Below, one piece after another: positions 9,804-27,800 of a stretch of DNA of 64,000 nt. Each line of letters begins with the position of its first letter. Position 1 is the first letter of the stretch. Source of the DNA: Pecten maximus (taxonomy: Eukaryota). Made by a program: the position numbers. The stretch is from contig NC_047029.1 of the NCBI RefSeq assembly GCF_902652985.1, forward strand, positions 21,018,001 to 21,082,000. The letters are read 5' to 3'.

Positions 9804-12800
9804 GGGGGGGTATCAGTTCTGAATATGCAACTTTTTTGCTGCTTTCTGTGGTGTAAACATGTATAATTTTATATAATATGCAATAAACGTGATCATTTGA
9901 TAAATTGTAAATATATTGTATTGTTAACATTGAATCAGAATGGGACGCGCTGTCCACTGGACGGAACGCGACGGGAATTGGCAACACTGTCTCCCCAGTA
10001 ATTAGGTCGATAGAAACGTTAAATTCTGAATGGGGAAATGCAAACGCCAAATAACTTGATAATTATCAGTATGGCGAGAAAAACGCTAACAAAATAACAT
10101 CTTTAAAAGATGTCAGGGGTATCTACTCTACAGTATAACTATAATCAGTACAAACAATGCACACGTAAAACAAACACGTTATTCTGTAGTAGTTGTCTTA
10201 CCTTGTAATTCCGAGCGATGAACTTTACAACAGCACACTTATGTAAACCAAATGTTACGTACTCCTGTCACTATGAAGAAATCCGAGAAGTAAAATCTCA
10301 CTAGAGCAAAGTGAAGATAAATTCACATTTTCAGCGGAACCATTCTGATAATTTCTACCACTGAATTACCAAACCTCCGAGTCGACAGTCCTATTTAACA
10401 CTACCCTTTCCCTATATGGTGTTAACAAAATATATGTGAAGCCTTATCTGACAGATCTGGTGAACGTGATACCCCTTTCTGTTGACACAGACATGCATGT
10501 ACAATATGGGTCTCACAACATAAATAATGTTGCATTCTTATGACACTACATTAATTTTCAGAGATTGGTGAAACTAGACCAATTGTCAAATGCATAAAGA
10601 CCTCTATTGAAATAGAAATCAAAAATGTTATAGCAAAAGTAACTTCCGGGACGAAAACGGTAAACATAGAATCGTCCATCATTATAAAGGGTTAGTATAC
10701 ACCTCCTCCCCGTGACCTAGTGAGATACAATAGTCTACATTATAAAGGGTTAGTATACACCCCCTCCCGTGACCTAGTGAGATACAATAGTCCAACATTA
10801 TAAAGGGTTATTATACACCCCCTCCCCGTGTCCTAGTGAGATACAATAGTCCAACATTATAAAGGGTTATTATACAACCCCCTCCCCGTGACCTAGTGAG
10901 ATACAATAGTCCAACATTATAAAGGGTTATTATACACCCCCTCCCCGTGACCTAATGAGATACAATAGTCCAACATTATAAAGGGTTTGTATAAATCCCC
11001 TCCACGTGACCTAGTGAGATACAATAGTTCTACATTAAAAAAGGTTAGTATACATCCCCTCCACGTGACCTAGTGATATACAATAGTCCAACATTATAAA
11101 GTGTTAATATACATCCCCTCCCCGTGACCAAGTGAGAAATACTAGTCCAATATTAAAAATATACGGTATTTCCTCGTTAAACATTGTCTGTGTTCATTGA
11201 AAAAACTATAAGACAATGTGTGTGATACACTCTTCATCTTAAACTTCAGCGGGAATTTGATTTTTGCATGTTGAAAATCGGTAGGTGTTTAATATCGGTA
11301 CTAAAATAATGAGTTAAAAGGAAAAATAATTGGCATTATCTCCTTAATCACGATTATGGCATTGAAAACAAAACGATAAGCGGTATTATCTCCTTAATTA
11401 CGATTATGGCATTGAAAACAAAACAATACACGGCATTATCTCCTAATTACGATTATGGCATTGAAAACAAAGCAATACGCGGTATTCATTAAATTACATA
11501 TTTCTTCACCTTGTGAGTCGTTTCTCGGGAAATTTCAGAAAGACATCAGTATAAGATTATACTTTCTGTTTTAAATTTTAAGACAATGATTGATTCATTC
11601 TCTGTTGTTATCAATCGAGTGTTACAATTTTAGTCGTTGTAGCCCCTAGGAAAGGTCGCTTTCATTATCTCCGTCCTCCGTCGGGCTCGGTGAGATTCCT
11701 GACCTGAATAAGCATCTGCAGGCTCACAAAAAATCCCTACGTGACAGCGCATCGTGATAAATGATACTCGATATATGAAACAAATTACCTATATTTGAGA
11801 CAAAAATAGATCTGTTCCACCCATTACAGGCCTGCTTTTCTTTTGTACTGTTGCGTTCTCCCTGTCTCGTGTCGTCAAATGACCTTGGTTGCTGTAAGGG
11901 CGTATACTCCGTTGAATATATTACACCATCTTAATAATCACAATGCTCTAGAGTTTCAGTGCATGGTATTTGGTACTAAAACAACTTAAACTTTTAAAAC
12001 TAAAAAATGTGATATTCATATTAATAAAACAAATTGTCACGTAAGGTAGCCCCGTGACCTTTGCATCAAGTTTGACCAAAATCCATGAAATCATGAAGTT
12101 GCTAAGTGTTCAAATTGAATGAGTTGGTGTTTTTTTCTTTATATAGCGAATATGACCTTGGTCTTGAAAACAATGTTTTCTGTATAATCATACTTGACCG
12201 TTGTATAATGAAGTTGTTAAATGTCTCATAAGCCAAGCCTGGCTGGGTATCAGTTCTGAATATGCAACTTTTTTGCTGCTTTCTGTGGTGTAAACATGTA
12301 TAATTTTATATAATATGCAATAAACGTGATCATTTGATAAATTGTAAATATATTGTATTGTTAACATTGAATCAGAATGGGACGCGCTGTCCACTGGACG
12401 GAACGCGACGGGAATTGGCAACACTGTCTCCCCAGTAATTAGGTCGATAGAAACGTTAAATTCTGAATGGGGAAATGCAAACGCCAAATAACTTGATAAT
12501 TATCAGTATGGCGAGAAAAACGCTAACAAAATAACATCTTTAACAGTTGTCAGGGGTATTTACTCCACAGTATAACTATAATCAGTACAAACAATGCACA
12601 CGTAAAACAAACACGTTATTCTGTAGTACTTGTCTTACCTCGTAATTCCGAGCGATGAACGTTACAACAGCCCACTTATGTAAACCAAATGTTACGTACT
12701 CCTGTCACTATGAAGAAATCCGAGAAGTAAAATCTCACTAGGGCAAAGCGAACATCAATTCACATTTTCAGCGGAACCATTCTGATAATTTCTAGCATTG

Positions 12801-24800: not shown

Positions 24801-27800
24801 GTGATATACAATAGTCCTACATTATAAAGGGTTATTATACAACCCCTCCCCGTGACCTAGTGAGATACAATAGTCCAACATTATAAAGGGTTATTATACA
24901 TCCCCTCCCCGTGACCTAGTGAGATACAATGGTCCAACATTATAAAGGGTTATTATACACCCCCTCCCCGTAACCTAGTGAGATACAATGGTCCAACATT
25001 ATAAAGGGTTATTATACATCCCCTCCCCGTGACCTAATGAGATACAATAGTCCAACATTATAAAAGGTTATTATACAACCCCTCCCCGTTACCTAGTGAG
25101 ATACAATAGTCAGCATTAATTTCTTTTTTTCATGTCCTCTATATATCCTTTTCTCTAATTTAGGAAATTTAAATCTGGAGGTTGTCACTGATTTAGACTA
25201 ACTGCTCAAAGGAAATGAATATCACCCAGTATACGAACAATCTTAGAAGTTTGCAAAATCATTTAAACTCCAGCCAAAGGTTTCGGTAATGTGATATCAA
25301 ATGATATACATCTTTTTTAAATTATTTGTAAAAACAAATGGTATTCATTGTGATCACGTTATGTTATTTCTCAGTTTATATATGATGTATTTTGGAGAAG
25401 GCCTTAGTAACGCTGTAATAATCCTTTATGCTTTTGAAGCAAATAAAATATGTTTAAATCAAATCAACCAAATGCCAATTCGTGTATATATATTTGAGTC
25501 TGACATAATACGCCCGACAGCGACTCCGACAAAGCGACTATGAACGTATAACACGAATTCCGTTTGTAGCGATATGCATTGTTATTCAGGGCACACGTAA
25601 ACTAGGCCTTTCTACGGAAATGTTTCTTTGTGGACATTTTACCTTCTTTTACACAGAACGAGGACCGAGACACCCAGAAAATGGTATTTAAGGATCATAC
25701 GCGTATCGTTAAGGTTAAATATGCAGGAATCCATTGTTATCGTCATCACTGTTCAAATCATGAATAGCTGATCAAACGAAAACGTATGTATTCAGAGAAG
25801 TAATTAATGTCCTCATCTATTTGCATCTATAAGCTAATGAGGTAAGTTAAGAAAGCCATTAATCAAGTCTATTTTAAGCGAACAGCGTATTAATGCCTCC
25901 TCTGTCATTGATTCCATACATCATTATAAAAATAACAAAGTAAAGTCCCAAAGAATCCACGAGTCCCAGTGTTCACACGTGTAAGGAATATGCTACACTT
26001 GTGACGGAAACCACCCCTTCCGTAGGTTTTCATACAGTCGTGAACTTAATCACTGACCATTAACTTGGACTGATGACCATCAGAATCTTGTCAAGTGAAG
26101 AACTTCCTAAAGTGATGTGTGATAAAACGTCGTAACTTAGCTTTTTTTGTCCTTGTGATACGTAGGAATCAGCATTTAAACTTACTAGTTACCGTACCTC
26201 ACTAGAGTATATTGCCGATGACATATCACTCCCAGTAGCATTTTGTTGAAAGTAGCTAATCGGAATTGCCCTTGCTTGAACGTCAATTAAGCAGAGAGCT
26301 TGCAGTTAGAACCAACTGCAACAAAAGTCAATACAGATTAACTTTTCTTAATATTAAAAACTTACGGAAATCTTCCAGACACCTCGTCAACTGGGATCGG
26401 GAACATTATCGAAGACGCATCCATATTTCCAGCTTCTTTCAACGATATAAACATAGGCCTGAAAATATTGTTACACATATATGTAATTATTTCTTCTGAA
26501 ATCGAAATTGATATACAGTAAAACTCACTTGTGTCGAACACGGTTGAGTCGAATACATCGGATGAGTCGAACGTTTCGTTCGGTCCCGATTTTTTCCCTT
26601 CTTTATCTTAGTAAATTAAGCACGGATGACTCGAACACTGTTGAATCGAATACTACGGTTGTGTCGAATATATTTTGTGGTCCCTCCCTTCTAAACTATA
26701 CCAAAATTTCCATTTTTGTGTCGAACATCGAGGCGTCATGCTGTCTCAGGTAAAATTTGCTGGCCTCGTCCTATTGACCGAGTGTGACCGATCAGCCGTA
26801 ACGGTGTAACCAGAGCCTATTGTTAGTTTCCGGCTGTCGGTTACGCATCATCCCATTGTTTATACAGGTGCTCAGGTGAAGTAAAACGTTCAGGTATACA
26901 TAACTAAGAATAAAATGTGCACGTTTTAGTCTACAAACCAACAGTGTGTTCTATTTACTGTTTTGATGCACACGGCCACCGAAAAAAATAAGTAAAAAGT
27001 AAACGATAAATTACATATCTTCCATCGAAAAATAAAAAGAAAAATACCTGTCTGTCATTGATTTATTTATGTATGCCTAAATTCGGAATACGACGATGCA
27101 ATAGTAACAATGATATGCGGGATGTTTTTACTCTGTTCAAAAGATTGTGGCAATGCATGATCATGCAGCCGATAAACACTGACCGCGGCCTTCACCTTTG
27201 ATACAAAATCAGCACGTGAACGGTCGATCAATTTTCCCGGACTGTTTATTGTTTAATATTGTTAAATTGGAGAACAATATAAACGGACTTAAAGATAAAT
27301 AATATGAGTGAAATATATACATTTATATTCTTATAATATATGTAACGTTTTCATAGAATATTATGCTGTCATTTGCGACTCCCGTGTGTAAATCGTGTGT
27401 CTATGTCAATGACTATTTTACGCATGAACTTTGTTTTTATCTGTAACTGTGCACAATATTGTTTATTAAATAAAGGAATAATTGTTATCATGTACAATTA
27501 ATTAATTAATTTGTTATTATGTATAACTTATTTTCGACTATGTTATCACGCAAGTACTTGTTCTGCATACAACCGATGATAGTCGGGTATTTTGTCTCCG
27601 TATACAAACACGGATAAGTCGAACCATCGGATAAGTCGAATATTTTGCTTGGTCCCGTCGATTTCGACTTATCCGAGTTTTACTATACATCATATAGAAC
27701 ATTAATACAGGTAACGTTTGAATATTATTAGAATTTGAGTTTACATACATAAACAGTTTTGTGTAAAAGAACAAGAACAACATGCTGCAAGATATATTTA

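What the first reader, a model, noticed from the sequence alone, without database searches (positions are those of the whole stretch)
9808..25118. Four-unit macro-repeat whose internal 59-bp VNTR lengthens along the array (~8, 16, 25, 55 units)
Seen: each unit has the same unique flanks, but the embedded minisatellite spans about 480, 970, 1500 and 3270 bp (SINE excluded), increasing left to right. Inference: a repeat nested in a repeat with a positional length gradient could reflect polar unequal exchange, or a graded regulatory module if the adjacent cassette is a promoter. With only four units a monotonic order can also arise by chance.
Basis: partly seen in the sequence, partly recalled or inferred. 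Interest (0 to 1): 0.7.

Follow-up and report, generated by a model that had tools for sequence, protein, structure and literature searches.

The report
Ordinary nested tandem repeat in bivalve DNA
A non-coding stretch of about 2 kb plus a 59-base minisatellite has been copied head to tail three and a half times in what looks like a bivalve genome, and the left-to-right rise in minisatellite length looks like ordinary repeat instability, not a designed gradient.

Summary
The four 59-bp arrays are real. Their lengths are 501, 972, 1502 and 3253 bp (8.5, 16.5, 25.5 and 55 monomers), counted with a 244-bp SINE-like insert removed from the last one. Only three units are complete. The fourth array stops inside a monomer at 25113, and it lacks both the three edge monomers and the right flank that the others share, so its length cannot be compared with the rest. 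Unit 2 also carries a 2.1-kb Helentron-type (HINE) insertion at 14945-17078.

The flanks are mosaics with sharp switch points, which indicates unequal exchange or gene conversion between units. The arrays differ by local block duplications. I found no long ORF or protein relative among the ORFs tested, no Rfam RNA family and no terminal repeats.

A monotone order of four lengths has a chance probability of 2/24. My reading is a neutral nested tandem repeat in a bivalve-type genome. Genome-wide copy number and assembly correctness could not be checked.

The parts
9771..9810 (.). (TG)n followed by G10. This microsatellite marks the left edge of the macro-array. Homology to the later units begins right after it, with 9808 aligning to 12245.
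   Evidence: 299-nt exact match starting at 9808 and 12245
9808..10665 (+). Unit 1, left flank A (alpha type)
10666..11159 (+). Array V1. 59-bp minisatellite of about 8.5 monomers, the most degenerate of the four (mean 8.1 differences between its monomers).
11160..12244 (+). Unit 1, right flank B. The first 480 bp or so are nearly identical to units 2 and 3; the rest is 59-79% identical. The switch lies at about 11593-11639.
12245..13120 (+). Unit 2, left flank A, a recombinant. It follows unit 1 up to about 12680 and follows units 3 and 4 from about 12742.
13121..14092 (+). Array V2, 16.5 monomers. Monomers 8-12 match V3 monomers 10-14, with 1 difference over the five monomers.
14093..14944 (+). 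Unit 2, right flank B, the part before the insertion
14945..17078 (-). Inserted Helentron-type non-autonomous element (HINE-like). Read on the minus strand it has an 11-nt subterminal repeat with its inverted complement (17052-17077), a (GTCC)n microsatellite (16968-17036), 11.5 copies of a 155-bp repeat (15182-16958), and a second subterminal repeat followed by a 7-bp-stem palindrome (14945-14975). It sits in a T-run with no clear target duplication.
   Evidence: family description read in passages of PMC7492417
17079..17309 (+). Unit 2, right flank B, the tail after the insertion
17310..18187 (+). Unit 3, left flank A (beta type)
18188..19689 (+). Array V3, 25.5 monomers. The first 9 monomers are a run of one variant type.
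19690..20738 (+). Unit 3, right flank B. It is 98.4% identical to unit 2's flank B and carries the empty site of the HINE at about 20535.
20739..21616 (+). Unit 4, left flank A (98.7% identical to unit 3's)
21617..25113 (+). Array V4, 55 monomers once the insert is removed. It contains internal block duplications, for example monomers 38-40 and 44-46. It ends inside a monomer and has no edge monomers and no flank B.
23211..23454 (-). SINE-like retroposon inside V4 monomer 28. An A-rich (AAAC/AAAT)-type tail is read on the minus strand, and a 10-nt direct repeat flanks it (23201-23210 and 23440-23449).
   Evidence: second copy at 40838-41057, 92.7% identical
11335..11486 (+). 50-bp repeat, 3.1 copies, inside flank B. 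The same copy number is found at 14268-14420 and 19865-20017, so this short array stays stable while the 59-bp arrays vary.

Best explanation
This is a non-coding nested tandem repeat in a bivalve-type genome. A segment made of flank A (about 0.86 kb), a 59-bp minisatellite and flank B (about 1.05 kb) was duplicated head to tail, giving three complete units and one truncated unit.

Shown by the sequence:
- Arrays 1 to 3 share the same degenerate edge monomers, so the minisatellite already existed with its edges when the segment was duplicated.
- Units later exchanged sequence. There are sharp mosaic switch points in flank A of unit 2 and flank B of unit 1, and the spacers after arrays 2 and 3 are a recent duplicate pair, about 98.4% identical.
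- The arrays differ by local runs and block duplications of monomers, at different places in different arrays.
- A Helentron-type element and a SINE were inserted afterwards.
- The right end was cut off inside array 4.

Inferred:
- Array length changed independently in each copy through replication slippage, unequal sister-chromatid exchange or gene conversion. Longer arrays turn over faster. Monomer heterogeneity falls as length rises (8.1, 6.9, 5.6, 5.3 differences), while the 3-copy 50-bp repeat in flank B never changed.
- The rising order 8.5, 16.5, 25.5, 55 is a by-product of this history and of chance. It is neither a functional gradient nor a polar process.
For: Structure and counts.

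Shared edge monomers: V1_06-08, V2_14-16 and V3_23-25 are the same types, and V2_08-12 matches V3_10-14.

Mosaic flanks:
- In the 5' part of flank A, units 1 and 2 are 100% identical, units 3 and 4 are 96-100%, and the two pairs are 68-86% identical to each other.
- In the 3' part of flank A, units 2 to 4 are 95-100% identical (mostly 99-100%), and unit 1 is 87-93% identical to them.
- The first 400 bp or so of flank B are 94-100% identical in all 3 copies. The next 600 bp are 59-82% between unit 1 and units 2 and 3.
- The switch points are sharp.

The units are distinct copies. The longest exact match between any two is 299 nt, and they carry private insertions.

No sign of a gene or a mobile-element boundary:
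- Of 25 ORFs of at least 60 aa overlapping 9000-27000, none exceeds 125 aa (112 aa within the units).
- Pfam gave 0 families for 2 of 2 flank ORFs tested.
- Three protein searches with two flank ORFs and one array ORF gave 0 hits.
- Rfam gave 0 hits at gathering score, and 1 weak hit at the left edge (9683-9822, E = 0.41) at E up to 1.
- There are 0 inverted repeats of at least 25 nt in 9300-25700.
- The monomer has no unusual DNA fold (z = +0.9 and +1.3).

Monomer distances within arrays (5.3-8.1) are about the same as between arrays (5.7-7.2), so all four draw on one shared pool of variants.

The layout fits the published definition of a nested tandem repeat (passages of PMC3273788).
Against: - Only one assembly of one window was seen. 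No reads, no second haplotype and no genome-wide search were available, so neither a dispersed mobile-element origin nor an assembly artefact is excluded.
- Units 3 and 4 differ by only 1.3-1.6%, which could be allelic divergence in a highly heterozygous bivalve (that heterozygosity level is recalled, not measured here).
- The first three lengths are close to 1x, 2x and 3x of 8.5 monomers, and I cannot explain that.
- Absence of function is an inference from missing signals. The 59-mer carries a GGGGAGGGGG run and a TGACCT motif that could bind proteins.
- How array 4 came to be truncated is unknown.
Confidence: 0.7

Rival explanations
1. The unit A-array-B is itself a non-autonomous mobile element, for example a Helitron or Helentron relative carrying a central tandem repeat. 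On this view it lies in tandem because of rolling-circle read-through, and the array lengths differ as they do among copies of such elements.
For: - In oysters most short satellite-like arrays sit inside Helentron-type elements, and Helitrons can be repeated in tandem with truncated copies (passages of PMC7492417).
- Long-monomer tandem repeats of 2.0-3.3 kb related to Helitron or Kolobok elements are listed for Crassostrea gigas (Table 1 of PMC8268682).
- A 5-bp-stem hairpin (AGCCA..TGGCT) followed by CTGG lies just before each unit start (read directly; the Helitron 3' consensus CTRR is recalled).
- A genuine HINE has inserted in the same locus.
Against: - There are no subterminal inverted repeats, no microsatellite next to the 59-bp arrays, and no terminal palindrome of the HINE kind.
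- The flanks of 0.86 and 1.05 kb are far longer than the 60-bp right flank described for Cg_HINE.
- The junction does not read CTRR followed directly by TC.
- There is no copy of A, B or the 59-mer elsewhere in the 64 kb, whereas the SINE has a second copy.
- The unit start is defined only by where unit 1 begins, so there is no independent element boundary.
Confidence: 0.1
2. Part of the structure is an assembly artefact. Units 3 and 4 would be two haplotypes of one unit placed in tandem, or the array was mis-joined at 25113. On this view the real locus has fewer arrays, and the 25-monomer and 55-monomer arrays are alleles.
For: - Units 3 and 4, and the spacers after arrays 2 and 3, are 98.4-98.7% identical.
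- One of those spacers has the HINE and the other has the empty site, as a presence/absence polymorphism would.
- Array 4 ends abruptly inside a monomer against unrelated sequence.
- V3 resembles V4 in its left part and V2 in its right part.
Against: - The junction from array 3 into flank B uses the same three edge monomers as in units 1 and 2, so it is a natural junction and not a loop closure.
- No two units share more than 299 identical bases.
- The window has no N or gap.
- The mosaic switch points also involve units 1 and 2, which are clearly distinct copies.
Confidence: 0.12
3. The gradient is functional or mechanistic. It would be either a graded set of regulatory modules whose strength scales with the number of 59-mers, or a polar process such as a recombination hotspot or replication direction that lengthens arrays towards one end.
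For: - The order is monotone.
- Monomer heterogeneity also falls monotonically from left to right: 8.1, 6.9, 5.6, 5.3.
- The leftmost unit is the most diverged in its flanks.
- The monomer contains G-run and TGACCT motifs (read directly from the sequence).
Against: - p = 2/24 for four values.
- The fourth array is truncated.
- No gene, Rfam RNA family or ORF of more than 125 aa lies in or beside the units.
- Differences between arrays are not confined to one end.
- Falling heterogeneity with rising length is what faster turnover in longer arrays would produce anyway.
Confidence: 0.04

Closest known systems
Nested tandem repeat (NTR) as defined by Matroud, Hendy and Tuffley, NTRFinder (PMC3273788; passages read)
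   Same: A tandem motif x (59 bp) occurs in runs of variable length s_i, separated by recurring copies of a different motif X (about 1.93-1.96 kb, B plus A). Here the structure is (0; 8.5, 16.5, 25.5, 55).
   Different: The published examples are mostly short motifs (10-60 bp) in rDNA intergenic spacers. Here X is about 2 kb, there are only 3 full copies of it, and no rRNA gene is in the window.
Macrosatellites and long-monomer tandem repeats of bivalves (Crassostrea gigas satellitome, monomers up to 3287 bp; PMC8268682, passages and Table 1)
   Same: Kilobase-sized units in short head-to-tail arrays in euchromatin-like, repeat-rich DNA of a bivalve, close to Helentron elements.
   Different: Sequence identity to any named CgiSat family could not be tested, because the sequences are in supplements or databases I could not reach. 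The species of the window is unknown. One long monomer in that paper (CgiSat48) is described as not resolvable into subunits, whereas this unit holds a minisatellite.
Cg_HINE, pearl and DINE-1 type Helentron non-autonomous elements with central tandem repeats (PMC7492417, passages)
   Same: Flank, tandem array, flank, with the number of repeats varying between copies. The 2.1-kb insert at 14945-17078 shows every described substructure.
   Different: The 59-bp macro-unit itself shows none of the defining substructures, has a 59-bp monomer rather than 140-180 bp, and has much longer flanks.
Classical minisatellites (VNTRs) with length-dependent instability and internal variant maps (general knowledge, recalled)
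   Same: A 59-bp unit, arrays of 0.5-3.3 kb, interspersed monomer variants, degenerate edge monomers, and growth by block duplication.
   Different: Here the comparison is between paralogous arrays in one assembly, not between alleles. Population variability was not tested.

Membership tests
Nested tandem repeat (NTR) | A tandem motif x occurs in several separate runs, at least one of them with 2 or more copies | tested here: met
   Four runs of 8, 16, 25 and 55 monomers
Nested tandem repeat (NTR) | A distinct interspersed motif X recurs between the runs (n > 1) and is dissimilar to x | tested here: met
   Spacer B+A is present 3 times, plus a half copy at the left end. It has no similarity to the 59-mer beyond short chance matches.
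Minisatellite / VNTR | Unit of about 10-100 bp in head-to-tail arrays of hundreds to thousands of bp | tested here: met
   59-bp unit, arrays of 0.5-3.3 kb, 86-92% matches
Minisatellite / VNTR | Copy number varies between alleles or individuals | not testable with these tools
   Only one sequence is available. The only variation seen is between paralogous arrays.
Helentron non-autonomous element (HINE): the 59-bp macro-unit | 5' and 3' subterminal inverted repeats, an inverted complement in the left flank, and a 3' palindrome | tested here: not met
   0 inverted repeats of at least 25 nt in 9300-25700. The 26 short pairs found within unit 3 are monomer-related or internal, and none is terminal.
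Helentron non-autonomous element (HINE): the 59-bp macro-unit | A microsatellite between the left flank and the central repeats; many dispersed copies in the genome | tested here: inconclusive
   No microsatellite lies next to the 59-bp arrays. Dispersed copies could not be searched, since no eukaryotic genome collection was available. There are none in the other 48 kb of the window.
Helentron non-autonomous element (HINE): the insert at 14945-17078 | Subterminal repeat plus inverted complement, a 4-nt microsatellite (GTCC type), central tandem repeats of 140-180 bp, a 3' subterminal repeat followed by a palindrome, and insertion in a T-rich site without target duplication | tested here: met
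   All substructures were read on the minus strand. The monomer is 155 bp in 11.5 copies. Units 1 and 3 hold the empty site, a run of 6 T on the minus strand. The description is in PMC7492417. Sequence identity to a named family was not tested.
rDNA intergenic spacer subrepeats | Lies between rRNA genes | tested here: not met
   No rRNA or any other Rfam family at gathering score in the 64 kb
Tandemly duplicated gene cluster | Each unit carries a conserved coding or RNA gene | tested here: not met
   The longest ORF within a unit is 112 aa and is not kept open in all units. There are no Pfam hits for the 2 flank ORFs tested, no protein relatives and no RNA family.

The most novel reading that the evidence does not exclude
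The length order could be real and directional. The macro-array would grow at its right-hand end, with each newly duplicated unit inheriting and then further expanding its minisatellite. The array would then record a polarised expansion process, and left-to-right position would equal age: oldest, shortest and most degenerate on the left, youngest, longest and most homogeneous on the right. The parallel gradients in array length, monomer heterogeneity and flank divergence are compatible with this reading.
Probability: 0.06. Interest if true: 0.45.

Novelty: new member of a known kind. Interest (0 to 1): 0.15.

Why it matters
It matters little beyond genome annotation. The locus is a clear example of how a minisatellite and its flanks evolve after tandem segmental duplication. 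It shows sharp exchange switch points, independent growth of each array, and two datable insertions (a HINE and a SINE). It could serve as a highly polymorphic marker in the source species.

It is also a warning for assembly quality control in heterozygous bivalve genomes. If the length order turned out to be conserved across individuals, the locus would become a small natural experiment on directional growth of tandem arrays.

Tried and rejected
- Coding or RNA gene in the units: rejected.
- DNA transposon with terminal inverted repeats, or an LTR element: rejected, no inverted repeats.
- Array 4 cut by the neighbouring LINE: rejected. The reverse-transcriptase homology starts only at about 27816, and no endonuclease domain lies upstream. 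Six related proteins out of the 120 listed were compared by tblastn.
- One long 59-bp array split by insertions of a mobile spacer: rejected. Each array restarts with the same degenerate edge monomers instead of continuing the phase.
- Higher-order period in array 2: TRF's 350-bp period scores no better than the 59-bp period (89% against 90% matches), and no monomer-level block repeat supports it.
- Hairpin-driven expansion: rejected. The DNA folds are weaker than shuffled controls.
- Search for the 59-mer in genome contigs (bacteria and archaea only): 1 locus with a single 19-nt match and no array. About 4 such matches are expected by chance in 596 Gb (my own arithmetic), so it was set aside.
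- Full-text search for three short motifs taken from the 59-mer, the 155-bp repeat and the SINE: 0 papers.
- Protein-level searches with translated flank and array ORFs, used as a proxy for dispersed copies: 0 hits. This says little, because such ORFs may never have been called as proteins.

Not checked:
- Supplementary tables were not seen. These include the Helitron box sequences of PMC8268682 and the substructure tables of PMC7492417, which might allow naming of the HINE or the macro-unit.
- I do not take the window for human sequence. The best relatives of its LINE are bivalve-associated, and it carries a bivalve-type HINE.

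
Full report
**Observation**

Tandem Repeats Finder reports four arrays of one 59-bp unit: 10666-11159 (8.4 copies), 13121-14092 (16.5), 18188-19689 (25.5) and 21617-25118 (59.5). A short-query BLAST with the monomer gives 105 hits. All of them lie in these four arrays, and none lies elsewhere in the 64 kb. The window has no N.

Array 4 contains a foreign insert at 23211-23454. It is flanked by a 10-nt direct repeat, and its A-rich tail is read on the minus strand. A second copy, 92.7% identical, lies at 40838-41057. The A-box and B-box resemblance is my own reading against recalled consensus sequences.

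With that insert removed, the arrays are 501, 972, 1502 and 3253 bp, or 8, 16, 25 and 55 monomers.

**Macro-structure**

Self-comparison gives units starting at 9808, 12245, 17310 and 20739.

| Unit | Left flank A | Array | Right flank B | Period |
|---|---|---|---|---|
| 1 | 9808-10665 | 10666-11159 (8.5 monomers) | 11160-12244 | 2437 bp |
| 2 | 12245-13120 | 13121-14092 (16.5) | 14093-14944 + 17079-17309 | 5065 bp, including the 2.1-kb insert |
| 3 | 17310-18187 | 18188-19689 (25.5) | 19690-20738 | 3429 bp |
| 4 | 20739-21616 | 21617-25113 (55, insert removed) | absent | truncated |

- Each unit is a left flank A of about 860 bp, the array, and a right flank B of about 1.05 kb. Flank B itself holds a 50-bp repeat of 3.1 copies.
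- The non-array part of each unit is nearly constant: 1936, 1959 and 1927 bp by subtraction.
- Flank A is present in 4 of 4 units. Flank B is present in only 3 of 4.
- From 25114 on the sequence is unrelated, and array 4 stops at monomer position 19.
- Arrays 1 to 3 end with the same three variant monomers. Array 4 does not have them.
- The array begins at 9808 directly after a (TG)n G10 run.
- The locus is therefore 3 complete units plus a truncated fourth, and the length of the fourth array is not a comparable measurement.

**The long gap between units 2 and 3**

A 2.1-kb insertion (14945-17078) interrupts flank B of unit 2. Units 1 and 3 show the uninterrupted site. Read on the minus strand, the insert has:

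- an 11-nt subterminal repeat followed, after 4 nt, by its inverted complement;
- a (GTCC)n microsatellite;
- 11.5 copies of a 155-bp repeat;
- a second subterminal repeat followed by a palindrome with a 7-bp stem.

It sits in a T-run without a clear target duplication. This is the architecture described for Helentron non-autonomous elements (Cg_HINE) of the Pacific oyster, including GTCC-type microsatellites and a preference for TT sites (passages of PMC7492417).

The best relatives of the neighbouring 5'-truncated LINE reverse transcriptase are records from an invertebrate metagenome (77-83% identity), Pinctada (53%) and other bivalve-associated sources. Together these point to a bivalve mollusc. 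I do not take the window for human sequence.

**History of the units**

Sliding identity and site patterns show mosaics.

- In flank A there are 138 sites where unit 1 differs from units 3 and 4, which agree with each other. Unit 2 follows unit 1 at 72 consecutive sites (12260-12537). After a short mixed zone it follows units 3 and 4 at 47 of the last 49 sites (12742-13112).
- In flank B, unit 1 differs from units 2 and 3 at only 4 sites up to about 11593, then at 187 sites in the remaining 600 bp or so.
- The spacers after arrays 2 and 3 are 98.4% identical. Flank A of units 3 and 4 is 98.7% identical.
- The middle of the spacer exists in two old forms that are 59-86% identical to each other.

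Such sharp switches are the signature of unequal crossing-over or gene conversion between units. That step is an inference from the pattern. No two units share more than 299 identical bases, so they are distinct copies.

**History of the arrays**

The monomer map and the monomer distance analysis show the following.

- V2 monomers 8-12 match V3 monomers 10-14, with 1 difference in total.
- V3 starts with a run of nine monomers of one variant type.
- V4 has internal block duplications, for example monomers 38-40 and 44-46.
- Mean monomer differences within arrays are 8.1, 6.9, 5.6 and 5.3 for V1 to V4. Between arrays they are 5.7-7.2, which is similar, so the four arrays draw on one pool of variants.
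- Growth occurred at different places in different arrays and not at one constant end.
- The 3-copy 50-bp repeat in flank B kept its copy number in all three units. This fits instability that rises with array length, a general property of tandem repeats that I recall and did not test here.
- The monomer has no unusual single-strand fold.

**What it is not**

- The units hold no ORF above 112 aa, and the ORFs present are not kept open across units.
- Pfam finds nothing in the 2 flank ORFs tested, nor in 8 other ORFs of the window apart from one hit far below threshold. Only the LINE ORF matches RVT_1.
- Three protein searches with translated flank and array ORFs found nothing. This is weak evidence, because such ORFs may never have been catalogued.
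- Rfam finds no family at gathering score in the window. In 9500-25500 at E up to 1 it finds one weak hit, at the left edge (9683-9822, E = 0.41, 19 bits against a threshold of 65).
- There are no inverted repeats of at least 25 nt in 9300-25700 and no terminal ones within a unit. The macro-unit therefore does not meet the HINE definition, and it looks neither like a terminal-inverted-repeat transposon nor like an LTR element.

**The gradient**

- 2 of the 24 possible orders of four values are monotone (p = 0.083). The pattern was noticed after the fact, and the last value belongs to a truncated array.
- Flank divergence and monomer heterogeneity also make unit 1 the oldest-looking and units 3 and 4 the youngest-looking. 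A historical reading (old and short on the left, young and long on the right) is therefore possible, but it needs no polar mechanism.
- I found no evidence for a regulatory role.
- The near 1:2:3 ratio of the first three arrays stays unexplained.

**Comparison with known kinds**

- The layout fits the published definition of a nested tandem repeat, x^s0 X x^s1 X ... (PMC3273788, passages). Here x is 59 bp and X is about 1.95 kb.
- It resembles the kilobase-monomer tandem repeats listed in the oyster satellitome (PMC8268682, passages and part of Table 1).
- I could not compare sequences with those families, because they are in supplements or databases outside my reach.
- A full-text search for three short motifs from the locus found no paper.
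- A 19-nt motif scan of bacterial and archaeal genomes gave one chance match.

**Limits**

- No eukaryotic genome, read set or second haplotype could be consulted.
- Whether A, B and the 59-mer are unique to this locus was not checked.
- Whether units 3 and 4 are a real duplication or two haplotypes placed in tandem was not checked.
- Whether the junction at 25113 is real was not checked.

**Verdict**

This is a real but ordinary nested tandem repeat, shaped by unequal exchange and by independent drift in array length. The apparent length gradient is not supported beyond chance.

Noticed in passing
window 14945-17078 (minus strand): A complete Helentron-type non-autonomous element (HINE-like). 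It has a subterminal repeat with its inverted complement, a (GTCC)n microsatellite, 11.5 copies of a 155-bp repeat and a terminal palindrome. It is inserted in a T-run of flank B of unit 2. Units 1 and 3 keep the empty site.
   Followed up: yes
window 23211-23454 and 40838-41057: Two copies of a SINE-like retroposon of about 230 bp, 92.7% identical and in the same orientation. The first lies inside array 4 and is flanked by a 10-nt direct repeat. Neither ARAGORN nor Rfam calls a tRNA in it.
   Followed up: partly
window 27753-29699 (+) and about 46129-47967 (-): A 5'-truncated non-LTR retrotransposon with a 648-aa open frame that has a reverse-transcriptase domain but no endonuclease domain. 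A second, decayed copy of a related element lies on the other strand.
   Followed up: partly
protein hits: Several proteins filed under bacterial MAG names (Candidatus Thiodiazotropha, a clam symbiont) match this animal-type LINE reverse transcriptase at 46-51% identity over almost its full length. They look like host DNA binned into the MAGs.
   Followed up: no
window 2573-3172; 36495-37005; 45918-46104; 48407-48691; 59726-60075: Further unrelated minisatellites: a G-rich 49/153-bp array, a 39-bp array of 13 copies, a 22/43-bp array, a 30-bp array of 9.5 copies, and a 182-bp repeat of 1.9 copies. The whole window is repeat-rich, and no host gene was recognised in it.
   Followed up: no
window 63274-63326: Weak similarity (75% over 53 nt) to part of the 155-bp HINE repeat. 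This may be a remnant of a related element.
   Followed up: no
arrays at 10666-11159, 13121-14092, 18188-19689: The first three array lengths (8.5, 16.5, 25.5 monomers) are close to 1x, 2x and 3x of one value. No monomer-block pattern explains this, and it may be coincidence.
   Followed up: partly
window 9808-25113: CpG observed/expected is 0.42 in the first half of array 4 (21617-23200), against 0.97 in flanks A and B of unit 3 and 0.79 for the whole window. The cause is unknown.
   Followed up: no
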